Source of the DNA: a virus
Reading direction: 5' to 3' (one strand)
DNA length: 64,000 nucleotides
Virus record (IMG/VR): IMGVR_UViG_3300032092_000011
Location: 32,001 to 96,000 of that record
Made by a program: the position numbers and the translations under genes. Below, piece by piece: positions 42,237 through 55,894 of the stretch. The notes under the pieces were generated by a model. It worked only from the letters and a program-made list of their open reading frames with translations, was not told the DNA's origin and did no database searches. Numbering within the stretch: position 1 is the stretch's first letter; each line of letters opens with the position of its first letter.

Positions 42237-42255
42237 ATAAACATATTGGCATTTG

Positions 42256-42329
42256 TGATCCCGTCAGGATTCGAACCTGAGACCTACTGCTTAGAAGGCA
42301 GTTGCTCTATCCAGCTGAGCTACGAGACC
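42256..42329 (-). tRNA. tRNA-Arg(UCU)
   Basis: Cloverleaf; ACTGC-CTTCTAA-GCAGT. Confidence 0.95.
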
Positions 42330-42364
42330 ATTTTGTAAAAATACATTATCGTTCTCTAACGAGT

Positions 42365-42652
42365 TTATTTTTTATTCTTTACAGGATCGCAACCGTTTTT
42401 GATTGTGTCCATTAATCTTGACTCTAATTTGTCTAATCTTGAATCTAATTGAGAATGTGTATTACTCTCTAATTCATCTACTCTGCGATTAATATCGTTT
42501 CGAAGGTCTTCAATTTCAAGATATAAATCTTGACTTGTGCGTTCTAATTCTTTTTCTGTTTTTCGTGCCTTAAAGAATCCAACAACAGCAACTACTGCTA
42601 ATGCAATAACCACCACCGATGACATCCCTAAAACAAATGATGTTGTTTCCAT
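42365..42652 (-). CDS. TM plus coiled-coil protein embedded between tRNAs
   Basis: N-terminal TM; flanked by a 13-bp inverted repeat. Confidence 0.75.
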   Translation of the reverse strand: METTSFVLGMSSVVVIALAVVAVVGFFKARKTEKELERTSQDLYLEIEDLRNDINRRVDELESNTHSQLDSRLDKLESRLMDTIKNGCDPVKNKK

Positions 42653-42690
42653 AATCTTTATGTTTTTTTATGTCAAAGAACGATAATGTG

Positions 42691-42763
42691 AGCTTCCGAC
42701 AGGAATCGAACCTGCAACCTATTGATTACAAATCAATTGCTCTACCTATTGAGCTACAGAAGC
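42691..42763 (-). tRNA. tRNA-Thr(UGU)
   Basis: ATTGA-TTTGTAA-TCAAT. Confidence 0.95.
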
Positions 42764-42792
42764 ATAAATATATAATAACATATTATATATTC

Positions 42793-43242
42793 TTAATAAT
42801 GAAGGTCGATGAAAAGAAGGTCTTGCTCGTCTTCGTAAAAGACTGGTGACCAAGCTGGATGGTATTGTTCTAAAAGCTTAGAATCTTTTAGGTCTTGTAT
42901 ATATTGTTCTGGATCTTCGATTCCAGGATATTCAGGTTCTTCTCCATTTTTGCGTTTCTCAACTTCTTCCCTCATCTTGATATTTAATTCTTCAGCTTCA
43001 TAGAATGCATATCCTTTTTTTGGATAAACTCCCCATCCTTCTGCTTTGGTTCCAGGTGGATAAGTTCCTCCATCTGAAGTTTGCATACCAGAAATATCAA
43101 TGCCTTCAAAATACTTATCTTCTACACGTTGAATCATAATCTTAGCGGTCAATGGAATGTTACGTTCTTCAATAAATTCAAGTAAATCTTGAACTGTCAT
43201 TCCTTGACTTTCAATTATTTCATTTTTACCAATTATCCTCAT
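42793..43242 (-). CDS. hypothetical protein
   Basis: 149-aa ORF. Confidence 0.7.
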   Translation of the reverse strand: MRIIGKNEIIESQGMTVQDLLEFIEERNIPLTAKIMIQRVEDKYFEGIDISGMQTSDGGTYPPGTKAEGWGVYPKKGYAFYEAEELNIKMREEVEKRKNGEEPEYPGIEDPEQYIQDLKDSKLLEQYHPAWSPVFYEDEQDLLFIDLHY

Positions 43243-43258
43243 TAGAATTAAATATTTG

Positions 43259-43341
43259 TACCTCAGGAGAGACTCGAACTCTCAATGTCTTACGACGCTA
43301 GATCCTAAGTCTAGTGTGTCTACCAATTCCACCACCAAGGC
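43259..43341 (-). tRNA. tRNA-Leu(UAG)
   Basis: CTAGA-CTTAGGA-TCTAG; long variable arm. Confidence 0.95.
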
Positions 43342-43345
43342 AAGT

Positions 43346-43407
43346 TACGGGATGCTGTTTTGCTTTTTCCAATAAAAGTTTGTAAATTTGCTGAAAGCAT
43401 CCCTGTA
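43346..43407 (-). ncRNA. CAGCAAA-scaffold ncRNA, copy 1 (hairpin cargo)
   Basis: GGGATGC-TTTCAGCAAAT-...CTTTT attgga AAAAG...AAAACA-GCATCCC. Confidence 0.6.
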
Positions 43408-43419
43408 TTGTGGCGCTAA

Positions 43420-43632
43420 TTACTTAGCGGAAGGTGCCAATGTAGTTGGAGAAACACCAGGAGCAGCAGGATCAACTGTTACAGTTGAATCTGTTGATGT
43501 AGAATCAGTTACTACAGCAGTAGAATCAACAGCAGTTGAATCTGAACCAGTTGTAGCAGTTCCGCTACCATTACCACAAGATGTCAATCCAATTACCATT
43601 GCGATTGCGAAAAGAAAAGTGTACTTTTTCAT
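43420..43632 (-). CDS. small Thr/Ser-rich lipoprotein
   Basis: MKK + hydrophobic + LTSC lipobox; DST repeats. Confidence 0.8.
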   Translation of the reverse strand: MKKYTFLFAIAMVIGLTSCGNGSGTATTGSDSTAVDSTAVVTDSTSTDSTVTVDPAAPGVSPTTLAPSAK

Positions 43633-43660
43633 GTTTTTGTTATTTTTTGTTTATTTGATA

Positions 43661-43689
43661 ATTATATAGGGTACTTAATCTTTGTTTCA
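43661..43689 (-). promoter_or_regulatory. class II promoter TGAAAC-N17-TATAAT
   Basis: Exact motif; upstream of the lipoprotein and the distal tRNA cluster. Confidence 0.7.
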
Positions 43690-43692
43690 AGT

Positions 43693-44055
43693 TTATTTAG
43701 AAACTTTTTTGAACTCTAAGAATTCAGTTGCCATTACAGCATCTCTATAAGTTTTCATTGCCGACTTAAAACTAACAGGCCGGCCTGATTTAGTTACAAG
43801 ATGCGTAAATCCACCTAAATGATAATCTTCATTAGGAGACCAAATAAGATAATAATGCTTCTTAATTCTATTTTTAGAATTAAGTTCATATGCTGGAGCC
43901 AAAGATCCAGTTCTCCAATCTTCTTTAAGAACGTTAATACTTTCGGCAAGTGCAACATGCTTTGGTAGGCCAGGACCATAATTGGCCTCAGTCCTTTGAT
44001 ACTCTATTAGAATATCCATTTTACCAATTTTAATGTGTTCGATTTTTCTACTCAT
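43693..44055 (-). CDS. hypothetical protein
   Basis: ORF track 43693-44073; likely start MSRKI. Confidence 0.65.
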   Translation of the reverse strand: MSRKIEHIKIGKMDILIEYQRTEANYGPGLPKHVALAESINVLKEDWRTGSLAPAYELNSKNRIKKHYYLIWSPNEDYHLGGFTHLVTKSGRPVSFKSAMKTYRDAVMATEFLEFKKVSK

Positions 44056-44066
44056 AATTTTATTAT

Positions 44067-44270
44067 TTACCAAGAATCCTCATCTGTTAAATCTAACTCA
44101 AGTTTAGTTAAGTGATTGTATACTTTAATAGAAGATCCCATACCGTACGAAGTAACTGACCATGTCATTAGGCCATATTCTCCGAACAGATCTTTAATCT
44201 TTTTAGCCCATTCATCAAATTTGGACTATTGTTCGTCGGATAATTCGATTTGTATTACTTTATTTGACAT
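44067..44270 (-). pseudogene. 67-codon phage gene with an in-frame TAG at codon 15
   Basis: MSNKVIQIELSDEQ*SKFDEWAKKIKDLFGEYG...ELDLTDEDSW fills the gap exactly; TAG at 44226-44228. Confidence 0.65.
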
Positions 44271-44937
44271 AAGCTTTTCTAAATAACATTACAACATCCA
44301 TAGCATCTTCAATTGCATTGTGTGTTACCACATCTCCTAATCCGGCACGTTCTTTACAAAGGCTAAGTCCAGGAGCGCAATCATCATTTTGCCAATCAAT
44401 AAATAGGACAGATGGATCTAGAGTTCGGCCACGAGCTTTTAAACATTGCTTCCATCTTGGTAACCTTTCTAAAAACTTGTTATCAAAGTTGGCAAAGTTC
44501 TTACCAGCTGCATTAAAGTAAAAAGGTTTCATTTTGGAAGTTAAAGCTGGATATGATTTACCATTAACGATTTCAAAATGACCGGTTGGATCGTATTTAC
44601 CATCTAGTGCACCATTATCATATAGGAATTGAAAGATTCTCTTTGCTACATCTTCTTCATAAAGATATTCACGACCAGTTCGTTGCTCAATTTCTTTACG
44701 TTCTTCATCAGTTCTAGCCAATTTGTATTCTAAAATGTCGGCAATTAGTTGACGATTCATATTAATCGCAAAGATTTCACCTTCAATTCTTTCACGAATA
44801 ATGGCAATTTCTAGTTTTGGTAATTCTTCAATTGGTTTAATATCAATAGTATCTTCTACTACTAATCCAATTGATAATGTCTGTGTTGATTCGTTATCGA
44901 TTCCGGTGGTTTCGATATCAATGCTTACGTATTTCAT
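44260..44937 (-). CDS. DEDDh 3'-5' exonuclease
   Basis: SIDIETTG, GKNFANFD, HNAIEDA. Confidence 0.85.
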   Translation of the reverse strand: MKYVSIDIETTGIDNESTQTLSIGLVVEDTIDIKPIEELPKLEIAIIRERIEGEIFAINMNRQLIADILEYKLARTDEERKEIEQRTGREYLYEEDVAKRIFQFLYDNGALDGKYDPTGHFEIVNGKSYPALTSKMKPFYFNAAGKNFANFDNKFLERLPRWKQCLKARGRTLDPSVLFIDWQNDDCAPGLSLCKERAGLGDVVTHNAIEDAMDVVMLFRKAYVK

Positions 44938-45527
44938 ATTAAAAATTTTAAGATTTCTTCTTTAACACCGCTCTGTTTGATTCCTTCTCGATTACGAGGA
45001 GTATGAACAAAATTTGTTAATCCTGGCTTTTTATCACTACTATCTTTAGAAGCAAATCGATCGCCTAAGAATTTAACACTCATATCTAAATCATCAATGG
45101 CAACCCAATGTGTAATTTCTGGGTGATTTTCAACCCAATGATTGATTTCCATGCTACGTTCTAGTTCTAATTCAGCTCTAAAACGAAAACCAGACCATTC
45201 GCTTGGATACAGGTCTTTAAACATATCAGTCGTTGCAATTGGAGCCTTAATAATACCTTGATTTAAGTAGTATTCTCCTAATTCTTGTAAATTAGCATGC
45301 AATCTCCAATCAGAACTAACTACAATTTCAGCTCCAGTTTGTTCTAAAATTTCATTTAAGATTTTAATTGCTTTTTTATCAAAATTATCGAATCTGTATT
45401 CGACTGGCATTTCACGAGTAGTCATGGATAGTTTCCTACCACCCCATTCCTTTTGCTTTTTGAAGCGACCGCCCCAATTATCAGCAAGGCAAATTACGCC
45501 ATCGTTATCTAAAAATACAATTTTCAT
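44934..45527 (-). CDS. HAD phosphatase (Swiss-Army-knife RNA-repair-like)
   Basis: FLDNDGV, IVVSSDWR, WVAIDD. Confidence 0.8.
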   Translation of the reverse strand: MKIVFLDNDGVICLADNWGGRFKKQKEWGGRKLSMTTREMPVEYRFDNFDKKAIKILNEILEQTGAEIVVSSDWRLHANLQELGEYYLNQGIIKAPIATTDMFKDLYPSEWSGFRFRAELELERSMEINHWVENHPEITHWVAIDDLDMSVKFLGDRFASKDSSDKKPGLTNFVHTPRNREGIKQSGVKEEILKFLI

Positions 45528-45560
45528 AAGTATTATATGTTTGTTTCGGAAAAAGTTTAT

Positions 45561-45588
45561 AAAAAAACCCTGACGAAGTCAGGGTTTT
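45561..45588 (-). terminator. intrinsic terminator
   Basis: AAAACCCTGAC-gaa-GTCAGGGTTTT with a 7-U tract on the minus strand. Confidence 0.85.
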
Positions 45589-45609
45589 ATATGTAGATTT
45601 TAAATGTGA

Positions 45610-46644
45610 TTAATGATCTGCATTTTCGCCTTCTTCGCCTTTTGGCTTAATAAGTGCTTCGATTACGGCAATGATTGCCAGGTATTTTGCGGTTGCTGTA
45701 ATAAAATGAACAACTGTACCGATTCCAGGAATTACGCTGAGAATTGCTCCTTCTGCTGCATGTTTTACTTGATATTCAGCAACAACACCGATGATTGATG
45801 CTAATACAGCAAATTCATAAGGTCCTGGTGCTCCAGCAAGCTGAGTTGCATAGAATGAGAATTTATTAAGTGCTCCACCTGCAACTTTTTCTGCTGCTTG
45901 TTTAACTTTATCTAAAAGGCTAAATGGAGGAATATGGTGCATCTTATGAGCGATTGCAGAAACAAATGGAATTCCTCCACCCTCTTCAACAATATCAGTA
46001 AAATCAACTGTTCCATTAAGAATGGCTTCATTTAGTGAATGTACTATAGCTAATTCAAAACTTTCATTAGATTTATCATCTTCTTTAGCAGCTTCCATAC
46101 CAGCTTTAGTTGCTTGTGAAACGAAACCAGACAGAGCCCAAGTTTTCATTGCTTTAGCAGAAGCACCTAATTGTTTTACCTCTTCAATTAAAGCATTTTT
46201 AGTTTTTTCTCCAGCACTATCGATTTTTTCTTTAATAACTTTACCTGCCTTTCCTGCTTCAGCTTTATAATAACTAGCTGCGCCATTCCATGCTGATTCA
46301 ATTGCTTCTTTAATTTTGGTTGCAATTAATTTAACAACGCTTACAATATTTCCGCCTAATTTAATGATTTTTTCTTGAGCATCGGAAAGAGCATTTTTAC
46401 CTTTAGTTTTAACAACATCTACCGCATTGTCAAATTTGGCTTTCATTTTAGCAACTAAACTTTCTTCATTAATAGTTTCAATAAAAGCTGTATCGAAAAG
46501 ACCAGATTCAATAATAATTTGAGCTTCATTTAGAAAAGGCTTTACATCATTGAATTGAGAGATAATATTAAATAAAAGTTCTCTACGAGATTCTACCAAA
46601 GTGCTATGATTAACAAATTGGTTATAAGACATTAATTGGCTCAC
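45610..46644 (-). CDS. helical Ala-rich putative virion/ejection protein with variant CTS
   Basis: GTG start SQLMSYNQFVN...LVES; internal LNE/INE; hydrophobic C-terminal helices. Confidence 0.65.
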   Translation of the reverse strand: MSQLMSYNQFVNHSTLVESRRELLFNIISQFNDVKPFLNEAQIIIESGLFDTAFIETINEESLVAKMKAKFDNAVDVVKTKGKNALSDAQEKIIKLGGNIVSVVKLIATKIKEAIESAWNGAASYYKAEAGKAGKVIKEKIDSAGEKTKNALIEEVKQLGASAKAMKTWALSGFVSQATKAGMEAAKEDDKSNESFELAIVHSLNEAILNGTVDFTDIVEEGGGIPFVSAIAHKMHHIPPFSLLDKVKQAAEKVAGGALNKFSFYATQLAGAPGPYEFAVLASIIGVVAEYQVKHAAEGAILSVIPGIGTVVHFITATAKYLAIIAVIEALIKPKGEEGENADH

Positions 46645-46693
46645 AGTAATTTACACAATTTTTATTTCTTTATATATTTCTAATATAAAATTG

Positions 46694-46766
46694 AGCGGAA
46701 GACGAGATTCGAACTCGCGACCCCAACCTTGGCAAGGTTGTGCTCTACCAGCTGAGCTACTTCCGC
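46694..46766 (-). tRNA. tRNA-Gly(GCC)
   Basis: CAACC-TTGCCAA-GGTTG. Confidence 0.95.
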
Positions 46767-46771
46767 ATTAT

Positions 46772-46858
46772 GGGTAGGATCAGACGTGTTCTGCATAGCA
46801 GGTCTGCCTACCGAGACCTCGTCGTTAACTTTCGTCAGAGCGTACCGAGACACTAGGT
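46772..46858 (-). ncRNA. candidate structured RNA
   Basis: GC-rich; GGTAGG/CCTACC, CAGAC/GTCTG and CTGC/GCAG stems; GAAA tetraloop hairpin. Confidence 0.4.
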
Positions 46859-46867
46859 AAAAATAAC

Positions 46868-46986
46868 AGGATGGGTTTTGTACGTGCTCTACCAACTGAG
46901 CTACTGGTCCCGAGAGATCAGGCCGGACTCGAACCGACGACCACGAGGTTAACAGCCTAGATTTTATTATTTGCAGTAACCATCCT
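46868..46986 (-). ncRNA. CAGCAAA-scaffold ncRNA, copy 2, carrying a circularly permuted tRNA-Asn(GUU)
   Basis: AGGATGG-TTACTGCAAAT...AGG CTGTTAA CCTCG TGGTC GTCGG TTCGAGT CCGGC CTGATCT ctcg GGACCAG TA GCTC AGTTGGTA GAGC A CG...AAAAC-CCATCCT. Confidence 0.85.
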
Positions 46987-46990
46987 TATT

Positions 46991-47956
46991 TTATATCTCA
47001 TTATATGATTCTTCTAATATTAAATTAATTTCATCAAATAATTCCTTATATTTTTCTTTAATCCCATTAAAATGATCTAAATCCGCTAATAATCTTAACA
47101 AAATAGAAATCCTAACATGCGGGTTATCATAAAGAAATTTCTTGCCCCAAATATGCTGTATCTCATCTTCTATTTTAAGACTCTCTTCGCTAGAACTAAT
47201 GTTAGGAATCCATCTTTTATTCCAAATCATTTCTTCCATATAGAGACATGCTCTATAAACATTTGGTTTAATAGTTCCATAGGATATTCCTAATTTTCTA
47301 GCTATAACAGGTAATAATCTTTGTTCAATAAAAAGAGAACTTCTTCTTTCAATTTTTTCATCATCTATTTCTTTATTGTATGATATTATCTTAATAGATT
47401 CGTCATACCAATTATCTATAAGTTCTCTTGTTCGATTTTTAAAATGAAGAATTGCAGCGTTTAATGGCCAATAATTCCAATTAAATCGATTAATATCTTC
47501 AAGATCTAGCCAATTAGAAGGATCATGGTACATGTTGTATTTTGAATCAGTATCAAAATTCTCTTTATGAAAGACATGGAAATCGTAACCCTTATCAATT
47601 AGATTTTTACCTTTAATCCATAAGTCAGTATCGAAGATACAAAACTCATTATACATTTTAGATAATTCTCTTGCTACAAATATTTTTGAAAAACTCCAAT
47701 ATCTAGATGCTTTATCTTTATGAGGCATTCTTGTTAATAAATGTAAATCGATTCCATCATATTCTTCAAATATCTTGTATTTTAAAATAGAATCTAAATG
47801 CTCTTGATTTGCAATTAACCGCATTGGACCATAATTTTCTTTCCAATATAAAACAGAGACAAGTTGTATTAAAACGTTGATTGCATCGTATTTATTATCT
47901 TTAATCTCTCTAAATTTATTTTCAAATTTATAATAAACATGATAGCCTCTAATCAT
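46991..47956 (-). CDS. putative nucleotide-sugar transferase (DUF6734-like)
   Basis: WSFSKI, FDTD (DxD), NAAI, IEQRLL, HIWG. Confidence 0.55.
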   Translation of the reverse strand: MIRGYHVYYKFENKFREIKDNKYDAINVLIQLVSVLYWKENYGPMRLIANQEHLDSILKYKIFEEYDGIDLHLLTRMPHKDKASRYWSFSKIFVARELSKMYNEFCIFDTDLWIKGKNLIDKGYDFHVFHKENFDTDSKYNMYHDPSNWLDLEDINRFNWNYWPLNAAILHFKNRTRELIDNWYDESIKIISYNKEIDDEKIERRSSLFIEQRLLPVIARKLGISYGTIKPNVYRACLYMEEMIWNKRWIPNISSSEESLKIEDEIQHIWGKKFLYDNPHVRISILLRLLADLDHFNGIKEKYKELFDEINLILEESYNEI

Positions 47957-47974
47957 TGTTCTATAATATATTTC

Positions 47975-48106
47975 GGATTCCTGTTATATGGACCAGCGCG
48001 TTTACCAATTTCGCCACCCTTCAGATTATTTATTCGATTGTTGAAGGGGTAGGACTCGAACCTACAGTATACCGGTTTCTTTCCTTAATTTTGCTGTAAG
48101 GAATCC
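47975..48106 (-). ncRNA. CAGCAAA-scaffold ncRNA, copy 3, carrying a permuted tRNA (Leu-type D-loop)
   Basis: GGATTCC-TTACAGCAAAA...ACCGG TATACT GTAGG TTCGAGT CCTAC CCCTTCA [18 nt] TGAAGGG TGGCGAAATTGGTAAACGC G CTGGT...AACA-GGAATCC. Confidence 0.8.
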
Positions 48107-48109
48107 ATT

Positions 48110-48186
48110 TGGCGGCTCGTACGGGACTCGAACCCGTGACCTTCGCCGTGACAGGGCGACATTGTAACCAACTCTACTAACGAGCC
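48110..48186 (-). tRNA. tRNA-Asp(GUC), CCA encoded
   Basis: TCGCC-CTGTCAC-GGCGA. Confidence 0.95.
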
Positions 48187-48192
48187 AAATAG

Positions 48193-48266
48193 TAGACAAT
48201 GATGGACTCGAACCATCGACCTCCTCGGTATCAGCGAGGCGCTCTAACCAACTGAGCTAAATGTCT
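48193..48266 (-). tRNA. tRNA-Ile(GAU)
   Basis: CCTCG-CTGATAC-CGAGG. Confidence 0.95.
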
Positions 48267-48386
48267 AAATATGAGAGGTCTCCGATGCCTCCTCTCGCGG
48301 TGGATATTTAATGACGTTTTGTATAATGCTGTATCAGCAAGTCGCAAGTTCCACTTATACGTCAAACTCGAATCGGTATTAAGGTG

Positions 48387-48458
48387 TAGCCCGTACGAGA
48401 ATCGAACTCGTCTCTCATCCGTGAAAGGGATGCGTCCTAACCGATAGACTAACGGGCC
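48387..48458 (-). tRNA. tRNA-Glu(UUC)
   Basis: CATCC-CTTTCAC-GGATG. Confidence 0.95.
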
Positions 48459-48465
48459 AAATTTG

Positions 48466-48537
48466 CTCCCCGGGTAGGATTTGAACCTACGACCACACGA
48501 TTAACAGTCGCGTGCTCTACCACTGAGCTACCGAGGA
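48466..48537 (-). tRNA. tRNA-Asn(GUU)
   Basis: CGCGA-CTGTTAA-TCGTG. Confidence 0.95.
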
Positions 48538-48547
48538 ATAAAATAAA

Positions 48548-48730
48548 TCTTCCATGCGCATTAACATGGTCAAGAAGTAACCGATGGTTTGTTCCCCATC
48601 GCCTGATGCCGTGCACAGCAGAGCAGGGTCTCCTACATAGCAACTCGGGGCATGATTACTCTCAATAAAGGTTGCGATCCTGCGAGAGCCGAGTTCCCTT
48701 TCAACGGTGCTAATCCGTCCTATGTGAGAT
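48548..48730 (-). ncRNA. candidate ~185-nt multi-stem ncRNA
   Basis: GC-rich spacer; ACATAG/CTATGT, AACTCGG/CCGAGTT, CTCTC/GAGAG, CGATGG/CCATCG and CCATG/CATGG stems. Confidence 0.55.
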
Positions 48731-48737
48731 TTATTCG

Positions 48738-48811
48738 TGGAGGATATCGGATTCGAACCGATGACCCCTTGCGTGCAAGGCAAGTGCTCTAGCCAACTGA
48801 GCTAATCCCCC
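48738..48811 (-). tRNA. tRNA-Ala(UGC)
   Basis: CTTGC-CTTGCAC-GCAAG. Confidence 0.95.
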
Positions 48812-48874
48812 GAAAAGAGTTAGGATCTGAGTCTTACGATACCTAGGATTCTTCTGCTCCATCCATACTCTCTT

Positions 48875-48950
<76 letters not shown>

Positions 48951-48958
48951 ATATATTG

Positions 48959-49029
48959 TTGTCCCCGAAGGATTCGAACCTCCACTAGATGGACCAAAAC
49001 CATCTGTCCTGCCATTAGACGAGAGGACA
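48959..49029 (-). tRNA. tRNA-Gln(UUG)
   Basis: GATGG-TTTTGGT-CCATC. Confidence 0.95.
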
Positions 49030-49035
49030 AGATAC

Positions 49036-49093
49036 TGGATGCGCTTGTGTCAAAGTTAAAGTTTGATTTTGTAAAATTTGCTGCATGCATCCA
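49036..49093 (-). ncRNA. CAGCAAA-scaffold ncRNA, copy 4 (anticodon-like hairpin cargo)
   Basis: TGGATGC-ATGCAGCAAAT-...TCAAA CTTTAAC TTTGA...-GCATCCA. Confidence 0.65.
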
Positions 49094-49099
49094 AAATTC

Positions 49100-49432
49100 T
49101 TATTGCTCTTCCGATATGTCAAAGATCGATTTGCCTTTTTTAGTCATAAAGATAATGTCTTCACCATTAGCATCTTCAACCCAATCAATTAGTCCATCTT
49201 CTTTCATTTGGTCTAATTCTTGATTAAATCTTGCTTTAAAAAAAGCATATTCAAATTGCTCTTCAGTCATTTGAAATTCTTCTCCTTTTGTAAAACATTC
49301 GAAGAATATTTCAGAAATAGATTCAACTAAATATTCAGGAGTTGGATCTTCTTCTTGCAATGTTGGTTTAAGTAATTCAACAACATTTTCAGCTTCAACT
49401 CTGACTTTCTGTGGCCAATTTGTTTTTTCCAT
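49100..49432 (-). CDS. acidic hypothetical protein (winged-helix-like C-terminus)
   Basis: GLIDW...IFMTKKG. Confidence 0.7.
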   Translation of the reverse strand: MEKTNWPQKVRVEAENVVELLKPTLQEEDPTPEYLVESISEIFFECFTKGEEFQMTEEQFEYAFFKARFNQELDQMKEDGLIDWVEDANGEDIIFMTKKGKSIFDISEEQ

Positions 49433-49434
49433 TG

Positions 49435-49701
49435 TTATTTTATAATGAATACTCGATAAGGTTTCATGAGTGTCAATTTAGAACCATCTGAATTGTAGTA
49501 CCAAATAGAATCTTCATTCTGACCATAAATTGTATCAGTGTACGCGATTGCTGGTCTAAGTTCTTCTGTAACATTAATCTCAGTCAAGCCAACTTGACGC
49601 TCGATTCTAGTTGGAACCATTCCTTCAATCTTGTACTTATATTCTTTACCTTTACATGAAAAGAAAAGAATTGATAAACCTATTGCATAAATTACTTTCA
49701 T
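49435..49701 (-). CDS. small lipoprotein
   Basis: Start moved to MKVIYAIGLSILFFSC (the upstream part overlaps a tRNA). Confidence 0.75.
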   Translation of the reverse strand: MKVIYAIGLSILFFSCKGKEYKYKIEGMVPTRIERQVGLTEINVTEELRPAIAYTDTIYGQNEDSIWYYNSDGSKLTLMKPYRVFIIK

Positions 49702-49713
49702 CTTATAAAATTT

Positions 49714-49802
49714 TGGTACTCGAGGCGGGAATCGAACCCGCACGAACCTTACGGTCCATCAGATTTTAAGTCTGACGTGTCTACCTATTCCACCACCCGA
49801 GC
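49714..49802 (-). tRNA. tRNA-Leu(UAA), CCA encoded
   Basis: TCAGA-CTTAAAA-TCTGA; long variable arm. Confidence 0.95.
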
Positions 49803-49842
49803 ATGTTTAAGTATCTTCAATAACTTTAAGAACGTTACATCT

Positions 49843-49871
49843 ATTATATCTGATGAAATCAGATTGTTTCA
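49843..49871 (-). promoter_or_regulatory. class II promoter TGAAAC-N17-TATAAT for the middle tRNA cluster
   Basis: Exact motif about 40 nt upstream of tRNA-Leu(UAA). Confidence 0.7.
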
Positions 49872-49886
49872 TAACATGTTATTGAA

Positions 49887-52800
49887 TTATCCGCAATAAA
49901 GATAACCGTAGATTCCAGTTGCCTTACCTTCACTATCAAAAGTACAATCTTCCATACATTTACCCAATGTAAATGAATTTATAGTTTGTCTTTCCTCGTA
50001 TTGAGGTGTTCCATTGTCAAATCCAATAATGACATATTCAACTGGTTGTTTCATTGCGTATCCTGGTACGTCAGAAGAACATAGTAAATCTCCTTTTAGA
50101 ACTGGACCATTTTGGTTACATACTTTTATACCTTGTAATCCTGTTTTAGCATCGAATGAATCTCCTAATGAAGCAACTCTCCATATACTTTTTTGATTTC
50201 TGTCCGCCAATGGTATTTTATTTCCAAATGAATCTCTATATTGATAATCTTTTTCTGAAGTATCTTTTCCATTTATTAAGAATCTATCTAATGGACTTTC
50301 CTGTATAGAAAAATCAACTTCTTGCCATAAAATACCAACAATTGCCGGGTCTTTTGCAGAAGATGCTTTAACTAATTCATTGTTTCCATCTAATTTAACA
50401 AGATCTCCAACTTCTAATATAACATCATTTCTTTTAGTATATTGGTGAGACAATGTTGTTGCTATTGCTTCTCCATATGGTTGCTCACGAGGATCTGTAC
50501 CTCCTCTGTAATTTACATAGTCATCTGCGAGTAATTCAAAATCTTGTTGATATTGAATAAAATTAGTTTTCGTTGATTCAAAATCAGTTTTAAAAGCACC
50601 AAATCTTGTAGTTCCAATGTACGCATCATTTCTCATTTTAAGCATTTGACGTGCACCTAATTCCGGATCTTCAACGATGTCAACTTCAAAGAAATCATTC
50701 ATTGGACTTCCGCCTACCGTAGCACCTGAAGTAATATCAATATCTCCTTTAAATGCTGCGGTACCGTCTGGTGCAATATAGAAGTTTTTAGCATTGATTG
50801 CACCTAGATCTAAGTTAATACCCATACCAGCCGTAGAATAAGTATTCCATGCTGATGTGTGATTTGCTGGGAAGTTACCATTCTTAATTATACCAGTAGT
50901 TATCTTTCCACCATCAATAGTAGTGGATGTTGTTAAAAACTGAGAAGTATCTGGAGCTGGACCTTGTGGACCTGTGGCTCCCTGAATAGATTTTGCAAAA
51001 CTTTGAGTTTTAGTAAAGCTAAAACTTGCACCATTTGCTCTTTTTCCAGAAATCGTGTATGTTATCGATGCTGTATTAGCTGTCATATTATTATGATCGC
51101 CAATCGTTGCATAATTACCGCTATCAGTAATACTTCCCGGAGTAATTGAACTACCTGTTCTTGTTAAAGTCCATCTACTAGCAGAGGTTCCTGATCCATC
51201 ATAAATTAATTCAGTAGCTCCTTCATATAATCTTATGGTAGTTCCTGAACCAGTATAAGTAACAACACCAGCACTAGTTGTAGGTAAAGTATGCGCTTCA
51301 TTACTAAGAATTACTGTCATACCATCAGTACCAGGTGCTCCATCGATACCATTAACGCCATCAACTCCGTCTCTACCATTAACGCCATCAACTCCGTCTC
51401 TACCATTAGTACCATTAGTACCATTAGCACCATTAGTACCATTAGTTCCTGGTTTAATTCCAGACATTGTGATTTGGTCACGTGCTAAAACTGTACCTGT
51501 TGTACCGCCTTCTCTAATCTGTACTTCTATTTTGTCAGGCATACTGTCAAAACTAGATTGTGGAGTATATGTGTATGTTGTAGAAGTACCATTTTGAACA
51601 GATACATCATTTTTAAAGAATTGATAATATACAGTTCCGCTTGTATTTAAAGCAGCTGCAGTAATTGTAGTGCTTGTAGGAGATGGAGTTGTTCCAGAAG
51701 TATTATATACAAATACCTGATCTACACAAGTTAGGTTTACAGCTCTTGCATTTGCTCCAGCTGCACCGTCTGCTCCGTCTGCACCGTCAACACCATTAGC
51801 ACCTTGAATAGATTTTGCAAAACTTTGAGTTTTAGTAAAGCTAAAGCTTGTACCATTTGCTCTTTTTCCAGTAATAGCATACACTATAGAAGCTACGTTA
51901 GCAGTCATGTTGCTGTGATCGCCAATCGTTGCATAATTACCGCTATCAGTAATACTTCCCGGAGTAATTGAACTCCCTGTTCTTGTTAAAGTCCATTTAC
52001 CAGCGGTAGAACCAGATCCATCATAGACTAATTCAGTAGCGCCTTCATATAATCTTATAGTAGTTCCTGAACCAGCATATGTAACTGTTCCTGTGTTTGT
52101 TGTTGGCAGAGTATGTGCTTCATTACTAAGAATTACTGTCATACCATCAGTACCAGGTGCTCCATCGATACCATTAACGCCATCAACTCCGTCTCTACCA
52201 TCAGTACCATCAGTACCATTAGTTCCTGGTTTAATTCCAGACATTGTGATTTGGTCACGTGCTAAAACTGTGCCTGTTGTACCGCCTTCTCTAATCTGTA
52301 CTTCTATCTTGTCAGGCATGCTAGCAAAACTAGATTGTGGAGTATATGTGTATGTTGATGCTGTCCCATTTTGAACAGATACATCATTTTTAAAGAATTG
52401 ATAATATACAGTTCCGCTTGTATTTAAAGCAGCGGCTGTTATTACTGAACTAACTGGTGAAGGATTTGTTCCGGACGCATCATATACAAATACCTGATCT
52501 ACGCAAGTTAGGTTTACGGCTCTTGCATTTGCTCCAGCTGAACCGTCTGCTCCGTCTGCTCCGTCAACACCGTCAGCTCCTTTGACTAAAACCCAATTAT
52601 AAAGTGATGAATCTGTTGAATCAGCTTCGGTAAAATCAGTATAAGTTCCCATATACTCTCTACCAGTCGGATCGCTTACGCTAAAATCAATAATTTGATT
52701 GCTGCCATTTTTATTTGCATATGCAATATGTAAATATGAAGTTTGTCCATCAACACCATTAACACCAGGAAGACCATTCTCACCATTAGCTCCATCAGCA

Positions 52801-54854
52801 CCTTTAACTAATTGCCATTTCCATAAAGTACTTCCAGATGGTGCATCAGCAGCGGTTGTATCAACATAAGTACCTATGTATAATTTTCCGGCTGCGTTTT
52901 GACTAAAGCCTCCTCCAGAAGCATTGTCAGCATATGCAATGTGAAAATACGTTGAAACACCATCAGCGCCAGGAGCACCAGGAAGACCATCTGCACCGTC
53001 TAAACCATTAGTACCTGGGGCACCTTGTGGGCCAGGAGCTCCATCTACACCATTAGTACCAGCAGGACCTTGTGGACCGGCAGAAAAACTAACAGCTCCA
53101 TTAAATGCAACTTGTCCATCGATAATAGAGAATGGAGTTAATAATTGTCCATTTGGACCTCCAGTAGATACTTTAAAAGAATCTGCTGTAAATGAAATTG
53201 AACTACCTGTTTCATCAGCTCCTAATCTCATTCCAGCAACATTACCATCAGCATTTACTTCTAGAGTATATTGTGCATTTACTTTATTAGTAAGAGCATT
53301 AATATCAGCACTCATTGATTGAGTTACTCCAGCAGTTTGTTCTTCTAATTCTGCTATTAAATTAGTTGTTGAAGTTACAGTTGCTTGATTAGCAGTTGCA
53401 ATTGCTGAATCAATAACTGTTTTAAGAGCAGAAGACTGGCTAAAACCAGTTATTGATCCATTATCTATTGTATATTGTGCTTCTAGTGTATTTAATCTAG
53501 TTACAGTTGCTCCATCACCATTACTTAAAGAAGCAATCTCTTCACTAATATTTGTTAATGCCTCTGCTCTAATAGCAGCTTCTCCAGCAATTGCTTCAGC
53601 AATATCAACTTCGAATTGCGTACCTAAATTAGTAACTGAAAGAGCAACGGCTTCATTAGCAGTTGTTAATGCGGATATTGAACTTTCAACTCCTGCAATT
53701 GCCTGTGTTCTTAAAAGATTTTGATTATCTTCTAGGTCTGTTAAATCACTTGCAAATGAAGCACTTAAATTAGTTACTGCTTGTGCAGTTGCTGAATTAG
53801 CATCATTTAACGTAGTCAATGTTTGATTTATACTGGAAATTGCTGATGTTCTTGCTTGAGTTTCAATTCCTAAAAGTCGTGCTCTTTCAGCAGCTTCTTC
53901 AGCAATAGCACTAACTCTTTCAGCAGCTTCTGCTTCTAAATCTTCAATTGTTGCTAATCCAGTTAAATCAGCACCTGGAATTGAACTTACAGCACTTTGA
54001 ATTGCTGATGTTCTAGCCAATACTTCAGCTGCTAGAGCATTTTGTCTTGCTAATGCTTCAGTTGAAATTGCTCCAGTAATTTCACTAGTAAAAGATGTGC
54101 TTAAATCCGTAACTGATTGCGCAGTTGCTTCATTAGCATTAGATAGTGAAGTTAAAGTTTGATTAATATCTGAAATTGCAGATATTCTTAATGCTGCTTC
54201 AGAACTAACAGCAGCTTCAATTTCAGCTTCAAAAGAAGTATTTATATTATTTACTGTTTCGGCAAGAGCTTCATTAGCATTAGATAATGAAGTTATAGTT
54301 TGATTTATATTTGAAATTGCAGCTGTTCTTGCTAATGTTTCAGCGCCAACTGCTGTTTCAATTTCAGCTTCAAAAGAAGTATTTATATTATTTACAGTTT
54401 GTGCGAGTGCTGAATTTGAATTAGCTAATGTTGTTAATTGACTAGTTACGCTTGTTAATGCTTGTGTTCTAGCTGTTGTTTCTAAACCAATAACTCGGGC
54501 TCTTTCAGCTGCTTCTTCTAATAATCTACTATTAGTAACTAATTCATTACCATTAACTTGCATATTACCATTAGCCATGCTAATTGAATTTGATCCAAGA
54601 TAGATTGTGCTGTTACTTAAGTAAATATCTCTAAATCTTAGAGTTGGCGTACCTAAATCATGAATTTCATTTTGATCAGGTATAATACTAAATGCAACTT
54701 GTCCATTAAAAGACGAACCAGTCCCGCCTTCAAAACCATCAAGTAGTTCAGAAATTTCAGTAAGTTGCTGATTAATTGCAGCAAAATTATCGTTAAGCGT
54801 TTTACGCGAATCTTTTATACCATCGGTTCCTAGTAGTGGTGTTATTGAAGCCAT
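49887..54854 (-). CDS. mosaic tail fibre / host-specificity protein
   Basis: Coiled-coil repeats; lambda J/DUF1983-like YTLEVNADGNVAGMRLG..FTADSF; HIAYA..GTY repeats; collagen linkers; C-terminal NQNGPVLKGDLLCSSDVPGYAMKQ chaperone-like domain. Confidence 0.8.
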   Translation of the reverse strand: MASITPLLGTDGIKDSRKTLNDNFAAINQQLTEISELLDGFEGGTGSSFNGQVAFSIIPDQNEIHDLGTPTLRFRDIYLSNSTIYLGSNSISMANGNMQVNGNELVTNSRLLEEAAERARVIGLETTARTQALTSVTSQLTTLANSNSALAQTVNNINTSFEAEIETAVGAETLARTAAISNINQTITSLSNANEALAETVNNINTSFEAEIEAAVSSEAALRISAISDINQTLTSLSNANEATAQSVTDLSTSFTSEITGAISTEALARQNALAAEVLARTSAIQSAVSSIPGADLTGLATIEDLEAEAAERVSAIAEEAAERARLLGIETQARTSAISSINQTLTTLNDANSATAQAVTNLSASFASDLTDLEDNQNLLRTQAIAGVESSISALTTANEAVALSVTNLGTQFEVDIAEAIAGEAAIRAEALTNISEEIASLSNGDGATVTRLNTLEAQYTIDNGSITGFSQSSALKTVIDSAIATANQATVTSTTNLIAELEEQTAGVTQSMSADINALTNKVNAQYTLEVNADGNVAGMRLGADETGSSISFTADSFKVSTGGPNGQLLTPFSIIDGQVAFNGAVSFSAGPQGPAGTNGVDGAPGPQGAPGTNGLDGADGLPGAPGADGVSTYFHIAYADNASGGGFSQNAAGKLYIGTYVDTTAADAPSGSTLWKWQLVKGADGANGENGLPGVNGVDGQTSYLHIAYANKNGSNQIIDFSVSDPTGREYMGTYTDFTEADSTDSSLYNWVLVKGADGVDGADGADGSAGANARAVNLTCVDQVFVYDASGTNPSPVSSVITAAALNTSGTVYYQFFKNDVSVQNGTASTYTYTPQSSFASMPDKIEVQIREGGTTGTVLARDQITMSGIKPGTNGTDGTDGRDGVDGVNGIDGAPGTDGMTVILSNEAHTLPTTNTGTVTYAGSGTTIRLYEGATELVYDGSGSTAGKWTLTRTGSSITPGSITDSGNYATIGDHSNMTANVASIVYAITGKRANGTSFSFTKTQSFAKSIQGANGVDGADGADGAAGANARAVNLTCVDQVFVYNTSGTTPSPTSTTITAAALNTSGTVYYQFFKNDVSVQNGTSTTYTYTPQSSFDSMPDKIEVQIREGGTTGTVLARDQITMSGIKPGTNGTNGANGTNGTNGRDGVDGVNGRDGVDGVNGIDGAPGTDGMTVILSNEAHTLPTTSAGVVTYTGSGTTIRLYEGATELIYDGSGTSASRWTLTRTGSSITPGSITDSGNYATIGDHNNMTANTASITYTISGKRANGASFSFTKTQSFAKSIQGATGPQGPAPDTSQFLTTSTTIDGGKITTGIIKNGNFPANHTSAWNTYSTAGMGINLDLGAINAKNFYIAPDGTAAFKGDIDITSGATVGGSPMNDFFEVDIVEDPELGARQMLKMRNDAYIGTTRFGAFKTDFESTKTNFIQYQQDFELLADDYVNYRGGTDPREQPYGEAIATTLSHQYTKRNDVILEVGDLVKLDGNNELVKASSAKDPAIVGILWQEVDFSIQESPLDRFLINGKDTSEKDYQYRDSFGNKIPLADRNQKSIWRVASLGDSFDAKTGLQGIKVCNQNGPVLKGDLLCSSDVPGYAMKQPVEYVIIGFDNGTPQYEERQTINSFTLGKCMEDCTFDSEGKATGIYGYLYCG
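50984..52570 (-). repeat. internal tandem duplication (~0.8 kb, 2 copies) in the fibre gene
   Basis: GANARAVNLTCVDQVFVY...KTQSFAKSIQG block repeated with high DNA identity. Confidence 0.85.
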
Positions 54855-54905
54855 TTCTTAGTTATTTTATATTTTAAATATCGTATTATATATTTAGTTT
54901 TTTTG

Positions 54906-54990
54906 CGGAAGCTACAGGATTCGAACCTGTGGGACCGTGAAGTCCGCCACTTTAGCAAAGTGGCACGATAGACCGCTCTGACAAACTTCC
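54906..54990 (-). tRNA. tRNA-Ser(GCU)
   Basis: CCACT-TTGCTAA-AGTGG; long variable arm. Confidence 0.93.
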
Positions 54991-54992
54991 AA

Positions 54993-55069
54993 TGGGGTGA
55001 CCAGTGGGGATCGAACCCACGACAACTAGAACCACAATCTAGTGCTCTACCAACTGAGCTATGGCCACC
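54993..55069 (-). tRNA. tRNA-His(GUG), G-1 and CCA encoded
   Basis: CTAGA-TTGTGGT-TCTAG. Confidence 0.95.
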
Positions 55070-55074
55070 ATGTG

Positions 55075-55149
55075 TTGCGAGACCGGGACTCGAACCCGGA
55101 ACTTCGGCTTATGAGACCGACGAGATAACCATTTTCTACGCATCTCGCA
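55075..55149 (-). tRNA. tRNA-Met(CAU)
   Basis: TCGGT-CTCATAA-GCCGA. Confidence 0.88.
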
Positions 55150-55156
55150 ATATAAT

Positions 55157-55286
55157 AAAAAGAGGTTTCGGGTCTTTCAGGGTTACTGATTATTAATGTT
55201 AAGGAGATGGGTGCACTGTCTACTCTAAACCCTTTTTCGACCTTTTTCCATCTAATTAATAATTACAGCTTCACTACCTCTTTTTT
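55157..55286 (-). ncRNA. candidate rod-shaped ncRNA with internal bubbles (6S-like shape)
   Basis: Nested stems AAAAGAGGT/ACCTCTTTT, ATTATTAAT/ATTAATAAT and AGATGG/CCATCT. Confidence 0.5.
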
Positions 55287-55287
55287 G

Positions 55288-55359
55288 TAGTCAATAAAGG
55301 ATTCGAACCCTTATCTCTTGATCCGTAGTCAAGTGTTCTATCCGTTGAACTAATCGACT
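55288..55359 (-). tRNA. tRNA-Arg(ACG)
   Basis: CTTGA-CTACGGA-TCAAG. Confidence 0.95.
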
Positions 55360-55367
55360 AAATTATG

Positions 55368-55441
55368 TGGACCAGCCTGGGCTCGAACCAGGGACCTACG
55401 CATTATGAGTGCGGTGCTCTAACCAACTGAGCTACAAGTCC
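55368..55441 (-). tRNA. tRNA(CAU), probably Ile2 (lysidine)
   Basis: CGCA-CTCATAA-TGCG; Ile-type body GGACTTG..CTGGTCCA; third CAU tRNA in the window. Confidence 0.8.
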
Positions 55442-55447
55442 ATTTTG

Positions 55448-55518
55448 CACGGGTGGAGAGATTCGAACTCCCATCGACGGTTTTGGAGACCGGAATGCTA
55501 CCATTGCACCACACCCGT
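55448..55518 (-). tRNA. tRNA-Trp(CCA)
   Basis: CGGT-CTCCAAA-ACCG. Confidence 0.93.
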
Positions 55519-55521
55519 AAA

Positions 55522-55659: not shown

Positions 55660-55660
55660 G

Positions 55661-55889: not shown

Positions 55890-55894
55890 ATGGC

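What the first reader, a model, noticed from the sequence alone, without database searches (positions are those of the whole stretch)
47975..48106. Second permuted tRNA, broken in the anticodon loop, with a possible conformational switch
Seen: the 3' half (ACCGG-TATACT-GTAGG TTCGAGT CCTAC-CCCTTCA-A-CAA) precedes the 5' half (TGAAGGG-TG-GCGAAATTGGTAAACGC-G-CTGGT). The acceptor stem is a perfect 7 bp, and an 18-nt AT-rich spacer separates the halves, which RNase P and 3' nucleases could remove. No canonical 7-nt anticodon loop can be assigned. TTCCTTA/TAAGGAA can also form a 7-bp hairpin that loops out CAGCAAAAT and competes with the closing helix. Inference: after spacer removal this could be a chargeable but non-decoding tRNA mimic, similar in logic to two-piece tmRNA.
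Basis: partly seen in the sequence, partly recalled or inferred. Interest (0 to 1): 0.7.

Follow-up and report, generated by a model that had tools for sequence, protein, structure and literature searches.

The report
Phage Y-RNA-like leucine-tRNA mimic
This is a real, conserved small RNA gene in a large phage's tRNA cluster: a leucine-tRNA look-alike written back to front and mounted on a conserved "handle". It most likely works like a bacterial Y RNA, as the partner of a phage Ro60-like protein, and not as a decoding tRNA.

Summary
On the minus strand at 48106-47975 lie, in order: an 8-bp closing stem, the motif UACAGCAA, the 3' strand of an anticodon-type stem, a T arm, a perfect 7-bp acceptor stem split by an 18-nt insert, a D arm of leucine-tRNA type, and the matching strands.

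Nine homologues in other phage contigs keep all five helices. 97% of cells pair and 23 of 28 pairs show changes on both sides.

The permuted order is that of YrlA-type bacterial Y RNAs. However, the published Ro60 motif and an adjacent TROVE gene are missing.

The same handle tags three other RNAs in the window. In relatives it directly flanks a DUF2828/DUF7788 gene, which looks Ro60-like. This contig stops about 2.5-3 kb short of where that gene sits in a collinear relative.

The acceptor 3' strand is followed by A-CAA. That is the commonest 3' trailer among the phage's own tRNAs (12 of 25). More distant homologues encode A-CCA. Opening by RNase P and CCA completion are therefore plausible; Mycobacterium smegmatis YrlA is the precedent.

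The proposed conformational switch is not conserved. Expression could not be tested.

Earlier notes of this scan describe the same handle-plus-DUF2828 pairing on dozens of other genomes. I found no paper or Rfam family for it.

The parts
48099..48106 (-). 5' strand of the 8-bp closing stem (GGAUUCCU). It starts 3 nt after the CCA of tRNA-Asp.
   Evidence: 8 of 8 pairs change on both sides across homologues
48091..48098 (-). Handle motif UACAGCAA, unpaired, directly 3' of the closing-stem strand.
   Evidence: CUUACAGCAA is invariant in the six close homologues. The same motif occurs in three other cassettes of the window and beside DUF2828 genes in relatives.
48077..48090 (-). A-rich 5' linker, variable in sequence. 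It holds the 3' arm of the non-conserved alternative hairpin.
48072..48076 (-). ACCGG, the 3' strand of the anticodon-type stem. It pairs with CUGGU at 47996-47992.
   Evidence: 4 of 5 pairs change on both sides
48049..48071 (-). Short variable loop (UAUACU) and T arm (GUAGG-UUCGAGU-CCUAC) with a canonical T loop.
   Evidence: The more distant homologues L025 and L045 keep a class-II variable arm here.
48042..48048 (-). Acceptor 3' strand CCCUUCA.
   Evidence: Perfect 7 bp with 48023-48017; 7 of 7 pairs change on both sides.
48024..48041 (-). Discriminator A, then CAA, then an A/U-rich insert (18 nt in all). Probably removed by RNase P and 3' trimming.
   Evidence: ACAA is conserved while the rest varies in sequence and length. 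The N73-CAA trailer is found in 12 of 25 phage tRNAs. Distant homologues have ACCA.
48017..48023 (-). Acceptor 5' strand UGAAGGG. RNase P cleavage is predicted on its 5' side.
   Evidence: cleavage is inferred, not shown
47997..48016 (-). U8 G9, a D arm of leucine-tRNA type (GCG-AAAUUGGUAAA-CGC) and G26.
   Evidence: Its best matches among the 25 tRNAs are the two tRNA-Leu genes. One D-stem pair changes on both sides.
47992..47996 (-). CUGGU, the 5' strand of the anticodon-type stem.
47983..47991 (-). 3' linker CCAUAUAAC, A-rich. It takes the place of an anticodon loop.
47975..47982 (-). 3' strand of the closing stem (AGGAAUCC).
46868..46986 (-). Sibling cassette with the same handle type (UACUGCAA), carrying a sealed tRNA-Asn(GUU)-like body.
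   Evidence: Rfam YrlA 43.5 bits, E = 5e-9, full length. Conserved at L016:10951-11070.
43346..43407 (-). Short cassette with the same handle (CAGCAAA) and no tRNA-like body. It abuts tRNA-Leu(UAG).
   Evidence: z = -3.15; conserved at L016:14561-14616
49036..49093 (-). Short cassette with the same handle (CAGCAAA) and no tRNA-like body. It abuts tRNA-Gln.
   Evidence: a like cassette lies at L016:15900-15958

Best explanation
The element is a Y-RNA-like small RNA of the YrlA architectural type.

How it is made (inferred): it is co-transcribed with the phage tRNA operon and released when the flanking tRNA is processed.

How it folds (shown by covariation): an 8-bp closing stem, the unpaired motif UACAGCAA and an A-rich 3' linker form a handle. 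On this handle sits an L-shaped body derived from tRNA-Leu, with an anticodon-type stem, T arm, 7-bp acceptor stem and D arm, but no anticodon loop.

What the handle does (inferred from gene neighbourhood): it is the docking module for a phage-encoded Ro60-like protein (DUF2828 plus a DUF7788 vWA domain). In this record that gene most likely lies just beyond the contig end. The tRNA-shaped body is the displayed part and would engage tRNA-binding enzymes or tRNA-targeting factors.

Further processing (inferred, about even odds): RNase P cuts 5' of U1 of the acceptor, the 3' side is trimmed, and the end is completed to CCA. This gives a two-piece RNA held together by 20 base pairs, as shown for M. 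smegmatis YrlA.

Charging with leucine is possible, because A73 and an intact tRNA elbow are present, but it is speculative.
For: Structure:
- Five helices with 97.1% pairing and 23 of 28 pairs changed on both sides.
- One copy per related phage.

Topology:
- The order T arm, acceptor hairpin, D arm is that of Rfam YrlA.
- The sibling cassette matches YrlA over its full length at 43.5 bits.

Handle:
- Four cassettes in the window share a stem plus C(A/U)GCAAA. All four are conserved in L016.
- The same stem plus (U)UACAGCAA lies directly after or before DUF2828 genes in G003, G002 and G006.
- In the complete 115-kb phage G006 the target homologue lies 5.4 kb downstream of that gene on the same strand.
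- G000 is collinear with G002 and ends about 2.5-3 kb before the DUF2828 position.

The protein:
- It carries DUF7788, which also occurs on true TROVE proteins.
- hhalign gives 97.2% to the vWA part of a TROVE alignment.
- 27 of its 30 nearest named Atlas clusters are TROVE plus vWA_Ro60.

True TROVE genes in other phages:
- In crAss001 and cr106_1 the TROVE gene is followed by arrays of stem plus UAC(U/A)UCAA. In cr111_1 a stem plus UACAUCGAA lies upstream of it.

Processing:
- The A-CAA trailer matches 12 of 25 phage tRNAs.
- A-CCA is encoded in L025, L045 and L021.
- Insert length and sequence are unconstrained.
- M. smegmatis YrlA is the precedent (PMC4201824).
- L016 carries a permuted tmRNA with a 17-nt spacer.
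Against: - No DUF2828 or TROVE gene lies in the 110-kb record itself. The partner is inferred from synteny.
- G004 holds a distant homologue (L021) but has neither gene, at 84% completeness.
- In G002 and G003 the target homologue lies 26 and 65 kb from the DUF2828 gene, so linkage is loose.
- The N-terminal half of DUF2828 was not shown here to be a TROVE-like ring. hhalign aligned only the vWA domain, and the single-sequence fold was unusable (pLDDT 37).
- The published Ro60 motif GNCGAA(N)G is absent.
- The Rfam YrlA score of the target (18.3 bits) is within the range that ordinary tandem tRNAs give (17-26 bits).
- No expression, processing or binding data could be obtained.
Confidence: 0.68

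Rival explanations
1. It is a stable tRNA-Leu-shaped decoy or sponge that acts without a Ro60-like partner. The closing stem and A-rich motif only protect the ends or mark processing sites in the tRNA operon. The body titrates a host tRNA-binding enzyme or a tRNA-cleaving defence nuclease.
For: - The element sits in a tRNA operon that also holds an RNA-repair-type HAD domain gene.
- No partner gene lies in the record.
- G004 has a distant homologue but no DUF2828 or TROVE gene.
- Distances of 26-65 kb from the DUF2828 gene in G002 and G003.
Against: - The motif is invariant while the stem around it covaries, which points to sequence-specific recognition.
- The same handle clusters right beside DUF2828 genes, and a variant of it beside TROVE genes, in unrelated phages.
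Confidence: 0.17
2. It is a permuted tRNA gene that matures into a normal decoding tRNA by end-joining at the anticodon region and opening at the acceptor, as in the red alga Cyanidioschyzon merolae.
For: - Perfect acceptor stem, tRNA-like 3' trailer and intact D and T arms.
- The phage encodes a ligase with an RNA-ligase-domain match and a HAD RNA-repair domain.
Against: - No 7-nt anticodon loop with U33 can be built from the bases flanking the anticodon-type stem, and these bases differ between homologues (CC/AA on one side, GAA/AGA on the other).
- Instead of a bulge-helix-bulge junction there are 24-nt and 9-nt linkers holding a conserved handle that cargo-less RNAs also carry.
- The phage already has tRNA-Leu(UAA) and tRNA-Leu(UAG).
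Confidence: 0.03
3. It is a two-piece tmRNA-like ribosome-rescue RNA.
For: - The gene order (3' tRNA domain, short A/T-rich spacer, 5' tRNA domain) is the same as in the permuted tmRNA that ARAGORN finds in the relative L016.
- No tmRNA was found in G000.
Against: - No tag reading frame, resume codon or pseudoknots follow the 5' domain. The RNA closes on itself 40 nt later.
- Position 3:70 is A-U, not the G-U alanine determinant.
- It has a full D arm and an anticodon-type stem, which tmRNAs lack.
- L016 has both the tmRNA and a homologue of this element.
Confidence: 0.02
4. It is a decaying remnant of a tandem tRNA duplication with no function.
For: The Rfam YrlA model scores ordinary tandem tRNAs as high as this element. 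Chen et al. warn of this artefact.
Against: - Conserved with compensatory changes in all helices across phages whose neighbouring proteins are only about 50% identical.
- The flanks are not tRNA halves but a handle shared with other RNAs.
Confidence: 0.02

Closest known systems
YrlA-type bacterial and mycobacteriophage Y RNAs bound by Ro60/Rsr (Rfam RF02553; Chen et al. 2014, PMC4201824)
   Same: - Two-module design: the 5' and 3' ends pair into a protein-binding stem, and the far end is a tRNA mimic in the order T arm, acceptor hairpin, D arm.
- It coexists with shorter RNAs that share the stem module (YrlB-like).
- M. smegmatis YrlA also has a 7-bp acceptor stem, is cut by RNase P and gains CCA.
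   Different: - The handle motif is UACAGCAA, not GNCGAA(N)G.
- The likely partner is a DUF2828/DUF7788 protein, not a Pfam-TROVE Ro60.
- No partner gene lies within 4 kb. It is not in this record, and lies 5-65 kb away in relatives.
- The body is clearly derived from tRNA-Leu.
- The gene is embedded in a tRNA operon.
- The Rfam score is far below threshold.
Handle-tagged RNA arrays beside phage DUF2828 (Ro60-like) genes. I found no paper or Rfam family for these; earlier notes of this scan report them on dozens of genomes.
   Same: - Closing stem of 7-8 bp, (U)UACAGCAA, an A-rich 3' linker and interchangeable tRNA-derived bodies.
- I confirmed such handles directly beside the DUF2828 genes of G002, G003 and G006.
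   Different: Here the RNA lies in the tRNA array, away from the gene, and the gene itself is outside the recovered contig.
Two-piece (permuted) tmRNA
   Same: Permuted order of the tRNA-like domain, with a short spacer that must be excised to free a CCA end. A real example lies in the related phage L016.
   Different: No tag frame, no pseudoknots and no alanine identity pair. It has a full D arm and an anticodon-type stem.
Permuted tRNA genes of Cyanidioschyzon merolae and other algae
   Same: The 3' half precedes the 5' half in the gene.
   Different: Those mature through a circular intermediate at a bulge-helix-bulge junction into ordinary decoding tRNAs. Here there is no anticodon loop, no such junction and no known bacterial splicing endonuclease.
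Dictyostelium Class I RNAs (Rfam RF01414)
   Same: A terminal stem followed directly by the 11-nt motif CCUUACAGCAA, which occurs letter for letter at 48101-48091.
   Different: A eukaryotic RNA of 42-65 nt without a tRNA body. The Rfam score is only 15.9 bits (E = 1.8), and no relationship was tested here.

Membership tests
YrlA (Rfam RF02553; Chen et al. 2014) | tRNA-like domain in the order T arm, acceptor stem-loop, D arm, closed by a stem formed from the RNA's 5' and 3' ends | tested here: met
YrlA (Rfam RF02553; Chen et al. 2014) | GNCGAA(N)G motif near the 5' end (the Ro60 recognition element) | tested here: not met
   The 5' module reads UACAGCAAA. A bridging variant, UACAUCGAA, occurs in L045 and beside the TROVE gene of cr111_1.
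YrlA (Rfam RF02553; Chen et al. 2014) | Encoded within about 4 kb of a Ro60/TROVE gene on the same strand | tested here: not met
   No TROVE gene in the 110-kb record by the Pfam model or by a custom profile. The record is 42% complete.
YrlA (Rfam RF02553; Chen et al. 2014) | Score at or above the Rfam gathering threshold (69 bits) | tested here: not met
   18.3 bits. Tandem tRNAs score 17-26 bits.
YrlA (Rfam RF02553; Chen et al. 2014) | Bound by Ro60/Rsr in cells | not testable with these tools
   Needs immunoprecipitation.
ACAGCAA-handle RNAs of phage DUF2828 (Ro60-like) loci | Closing stem of 7-8 bp, unpaired (U)UACAGCAA directly 3' of its 5' strand, and an A-rich linker before the 3' strand | tested here: met
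ACAGCAA-handle RNAs of phage DUF2828 (Ro60-like) loci | A DUF2828/DUF7788 gene in the same genome, with handles beside it | tested here: inconclusive
   Absent from G000. Present with flanking handles in the relatives G002 and G003 and in G006. Synteny puts it about 2.5-3 kb beyond the end of G000.
Canonical tRNA | Contiguous cloverleaf with a 7-nt anticodon loop | tested here: not met
   Not called by ARAGORN or the Rfam tRNA model. No anticodon loop can be assigned.
Two-piece tmRNA | Tag reading frame with a resume codon, pseudoknots and a G3-U70 alanine determinant | tested here: not met
   ARAGORN tmRNA search of G000 finds none. Position 3:70 is A-U.
Algal/archaeal-type permuted tRNA gene | Bulge-helix-bulge junction, and a complete anticodon loop after joining | tested here: not met
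   Linkers of 24 and 9 nt with the handle motif; the flanking bases are not conserved.

The most novel reading that the evidence does not exclude
After RNase P opening and CCA completion, the two-piece RNA is leucylated. The Ro60-like particle then carries a charged tRNA-Leu body that cannot decode. It could act as bait or a competitive substrate for host factors that read the acceptor and elbow of tRNA-Leu (LeuRS, aminoacyl-tRNA-dependent transferases, acceptor-stem nucleases), or as an amino-acid donor. That would make this an aminoacylated Y RNA.
Probability: 0.1. Interest if true: 0.85.

Novelty: new variant of a known kind. Interest (0 to 1): 0.6.

Why it matters
Y RNAs that imitate tRNA are known from bacteria and mycobacteriophages, but what the tRNA-shaped part is for remains open.

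This element belongs to a widespread phage RNA family that I found in neither the papers searched nor Rfam. The family uses a different handle and probably a different Ro60-like protein. The RNAs sit inside phage tRNA operons, next to RNA-repair-type genes.

This member keeps the marks of a tRNA 3' end and an acceptor stem that can be opened. It is therefore a good test case for two questions: are such mimics processed and charged, and do phage Ro60-like particles take part in the phage-host conflict over tRNAs?

Tried and rejected
- Rfam at gathering thresholds finds only the 24 tRNAs. The YrlA hit to the target (18.3 bits) is not evidence by itself, because tandem tRNAs score alike.
- The downstream 321-aa gene was suspected to be an RNA partner. 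Its model (pLDDT 75) matches GT-A glycosyltransferases, so it is unrelated. Its relatives in L017 and L018 abut tRNA-Asp with no such element between.
- TROVE searches: none in G000, G002, G003, G004, G006, G007-G009, G001 or LR756500.1. A custom TROVE profile against all G000 frames gave nothing. G005 has a TROVE gene, but 112 kb from its permuted element and without handles nearby.
- The genome-contig scan with the G005 TROVE protein found no relative. I did not use the second scan.
- The viral pattern scan for handle plus T arm gave two unrelated contigs, L001 and L002, with similar handles. These were only partly analysed.
- The single-sequence fold of the DUF2828 protein was unusable (pLDDT 37). 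Its Ro60-like ring is therefore not confirmed here.
- The conformational switch was rejected on conservation.
- L026 scored 47 bits with the model but looks like tandem tRNA-Leu copies, so I set it aside. It remains one of the ten rows counted.
A 208-kb contig carrying the identical neighbour protein could therefore not be fetched.
- Paper searches for permuted tRNA in phages, crAss TROVE Y RNAs and the 11-nt motif found no description.

Full report
**Setting.** The window is bases 32001-96000 of a 109,841-bp IMG/VR virus record that is judged 42% complete. It carries 25 tRNA genes, all on the minus strand. Its helicase is closest to those of huge and jumbo phages, among them phages of Bacteroidota hosts: LR756500.1 at 45% identity, then phages of Chryseobacterium, Prevotella (Lak) and Tenacibaculum.

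**The observation.** The minus strand from 48106 to 47975 reads as follows.
- An 8-bp closing-stem strand (GGAUUCCU), which starts 3 nt after the CCA of tRNA-Asp.
- UACAGCAA, followed by an A-rich linker.
- ACCGG, then a 6-nt variable loop.
- A canonical T arm.
- CCCUUCA, then A-CAA and 14 further A/U-rich bases.
- UGAAGGG, then UG.
- A 3-bp D stem with the loop AAAUUGGUAAA.
- G, then CUGGU, then a 9-nt linker.
- The closing-stem partner (AGGAAUCC).

The 5' half is most like the phage's two tRNA-Leu genes. The more distant homologues L025 and L045 still carry a class-II variable arm. The body therefore descends from tRNA-Leu.

**It is real and conserved.**
- The protein encoded just downstream has relatives of 50-73% identity, and an alignment of them led to related viral contigs.
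- In L016 all four handle cassettes of the window recur, among them a homologue of the target at L016:15752-15889.
- A pattern scan found further copies.
- A covariance model built from six sequences scores the close homologues at 139-172 bits. It scores L025 at 62 bits, L045 at 59 and L021 at 47. It finds exactly one copy in each of G002, G003 and G006.
- On the 10-sequence alignment 97.1% of cells pair, against 40-48% for slid partners. 23 of 28 pairs change on both sides, and no shuffle out of 500 reaches these values.
- That alignment was fitted to the model. However, the compensatory changes are also plain in the unfitted pairwise alignment: two acceptor pairs, one D-stem pair and several closing-stem pairs. 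One of the ten rows (L026) is probably a tandem tRNA-Leu.
- A decayed tandem duplication is excluded.

**What kind of thing it is.**
- The order T arm, acceptor hairpin, D arm, closed by a terminal stem, is the architecture of YrlA-type Y RNAs (PMC4201824).
- Rfam's YrlA model aligns to exactly these three arms (18.3 bits). That score is not informative, because tandem tRNAs in the same genome reach 17-26 bits.
- The neighbouring cassette at 46868-46986 carries a sealed tRNA-Asn-like body on the same type of handle. It matches YrlA over its full length at 43.5 bits.
- The published defining features beyond topology are not met. The GNCGAA(N)G motif is replaced by UACAGCAA, and no TROVE gene lies in the record.

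**The handle and its likely partner.**
- Four cassettes in the window share a covarying stem, then 2-3 nt, then C(A/U)GCAAA, with an A-rich linker before the 3' strand. Two carry tRNA-like bodies and two carry none. This parallels the YrlA/YrlB pairing.
- True TROVE genes of crAss-like phages are followed on the same strand by arrays of stem plus UAC(U/A)UCAA. There are five in 700 nt in crAss001, where about 0.04-0.09 would be expected by chance, and four in cr106_1. Some of these handles are inserted into tRNA bodies.
- cr111_1 and L045 show UACAUCGAA, which bridges to the YrlA motif.
- Notes from earlier sessions of this scan pointed to DUF2828 proteins. I tested this.
- DUF2828 plus DUF7788 genes of 475-489 aa are present in G002 and G003, the close relatives that carry the target homologue. 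One is also present in the complete 115-kb G006.
- In all three, stems followed by (U)UACAGCAA lie directly beside the gene.
- In G006 the target homologue lies 5.4 kb downstream on the same strand.
- G000 is collinear with G002 gene by gene, and ends at the point that corresponds to G002 position ~38.2 kb. The DUF2828 gene there starts about 2.5-3 kb further on. Its absence from this record is therefore most simply a truncated contig.
- DUF7788, the C-terminal domain of the DUF2828 protein, also occurs on genuine TROVE proteins.
- A profile comparison aligns that domain to the vWA part of a TROVE alignment at 97.2% probability.
- 27 of its 30 nearest named clusters in the ESM Atlas are TROVE plus vWA_Ro60. 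This is a lead, not proof.
- I could not confirm a Ro60-like ring for the N-terminal half.

**Processing.**
- The acceptor stem is a perfect 7 bp, and its 3' strand is followed by A-CAA.
- Twelve of the phage's 25 tRNAs have exactly an N73-CAA trailer and three have CCA.
- ACAA is invariant in the six close homologues, while the rest of the insert varies in sequence and in length (18-21 nt).
- L025, L045 and L021 encode A-CCA.
- By contrast, the sibling's acceptor is sealed by a tetraloop in L016.
- M. smegmatis YrlA is the one YrlA with a 7-bp acceptor. It is cut by RNase P in vitro, and is cleaved and CCA-tailed in vivo (PMC4201824).
- The relative L016 carries a truly permuted tmRNA gene with a 17-nt A/T-rich spacer between its 3' and 5' tRNA domains. 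Removal of such a spacer is therefore routine in this system.
- I rate two-piece maturation at about even odds. Leucylation is possible in principle, since A73 and an intact elbow are present, but unlikely to be provable without experiment.

**What is not supported.**
- The competing hairpin exists here (-5.0 kcal/mol), but its partner segment is not conserved (-0.6 to -0.9 in the five close homologues).
- A route to a decoding tRNA is unlikely, because no anticodon loop can be built and the linker bases differ between homologues.
- It is not a tmRNA.

**Limits.**
- No expression or end-mapping data could be obtained.
- The longer assembly of this phage could not be fetched.
- Binding is inferred from gene neighbourhood only.

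**Novelty.** The topology and the idea of a Y RNA that mimics tRNA are published. The UACAGCAA handle, the DUF2828-type partner and the placement inside tRNA operons were in neither the papers I searched nor Rfam. Earlier notes of this scan describe the same pairing on dozens of other genomes, so this is one more member of that family. It is notable for its tRNA-Leu body with an acceptor stem that can be opened.

Noticed in passing
window 46868-46986 (-): Sibling cassette: the same handle type (UACUGCAA) carrying a complete tRNA-Asn(GUU)-like body. Its acceptor is sealed by a short loop, and the break lies inside the anticodon stem. Rfam YrlA 43.5 bits, full length. Conserved at L016:10951-11070, where the acceptor has a UUCG tetraloop.
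   Followed up: partly
window 43346-43407 (-) and 49036-49093 (-): Two short cassettes with the same stem plus CAGCAAA handle and only an A/U-rich interior. Each abuts the 5' end of a tRNA (Leu-UAG, Gln). Counterparts lie at L016:14561-14616 and 15900-15958.
   Followed up: partly
window 48101-48091 (-): The 11-mer CCUUACAGCAA next to the closing stem is letter for letter the conserved motif of Dictyostelium Class I RNAs, in the same position relative to a terminal stem (Rfam RF01414, 15.9 bits, E = 1.8). Earlier notes of this scan mention the same resemblance. I did not test any relationship.
   Followed up: no
L016:15249-15536 (also L017, L018): Related phages encode a permuted (two-piece) tmRNA just after tRNA-Ile(GAU): 3' tRNA domain with CCA, a 17-nt spacer, the 5' domain, and the tag ANDNFALAA. 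ARAGORN finds no tmRNA in the 110-kb record of this phage.
   Followed up: partly
window 42255-56473 (-): Twelve of the 25 tRNA genes are followed by N73-CAA and three by CCA. Nearly all encode C74 only, which suggests a shared 3'-end maturation signal.
   Followed up: partly
window 44934-45527 (-): A 197-aa ORF inside the tRNA array matches the HAD domain of 'Swiss Army Knife' RNA repair proteins (PF18143, 1e-20). The neighbouring 225-aa and 344-aa ORFs have no clear family.
   Followed up: no
window 46991-47956 (-) and 49887-54854 (-): Two protein genes interrupt the tRNA array: a 321-aa GT-A-fold glycosyltransferase with a DXD motif, and a 1655-aa protein with collagen triple-helix repeats.
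   Followed up: partly
L057 (crAss001, MH675552.1) 5900-6620; L060 (cr106_1) 5366-5800: Directly downstream of the TROVE gene of crAss-like phages lie 4-5 RNAs with a stem plus UAC(U/A)UCAA. Two in crAss001 and one in cr106_1 are tRNA bodies with the handle inserted where the anticodon arm should be. I found no published description of these.
   Followed up: partly
G000 versus G002 (L016, L070-L072): The two phages are collinear, but the RNA block moved. In G002 the order is tRNA-Ile, tmRNA, target homologue, short cassette, all between tRNA-Leu(UAG) and tRNA-Thr. In this window tRNA-Ile and the target lie next to tRNA-Asp, 5 kb away, and the tmRNA is missing.
   Followed up: partly
L001:5572-5645, 5740-5820; L002:5236-5060 (-), 5040-4969 (-), 4957-4902 (-): Unrelated viral contigs, one of them binned as a giant-virus MAG, carry stem plus UACAGCAA cassettes beside tRNA genes. 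This suggests a wide spread of the handle.
   Followed up: no
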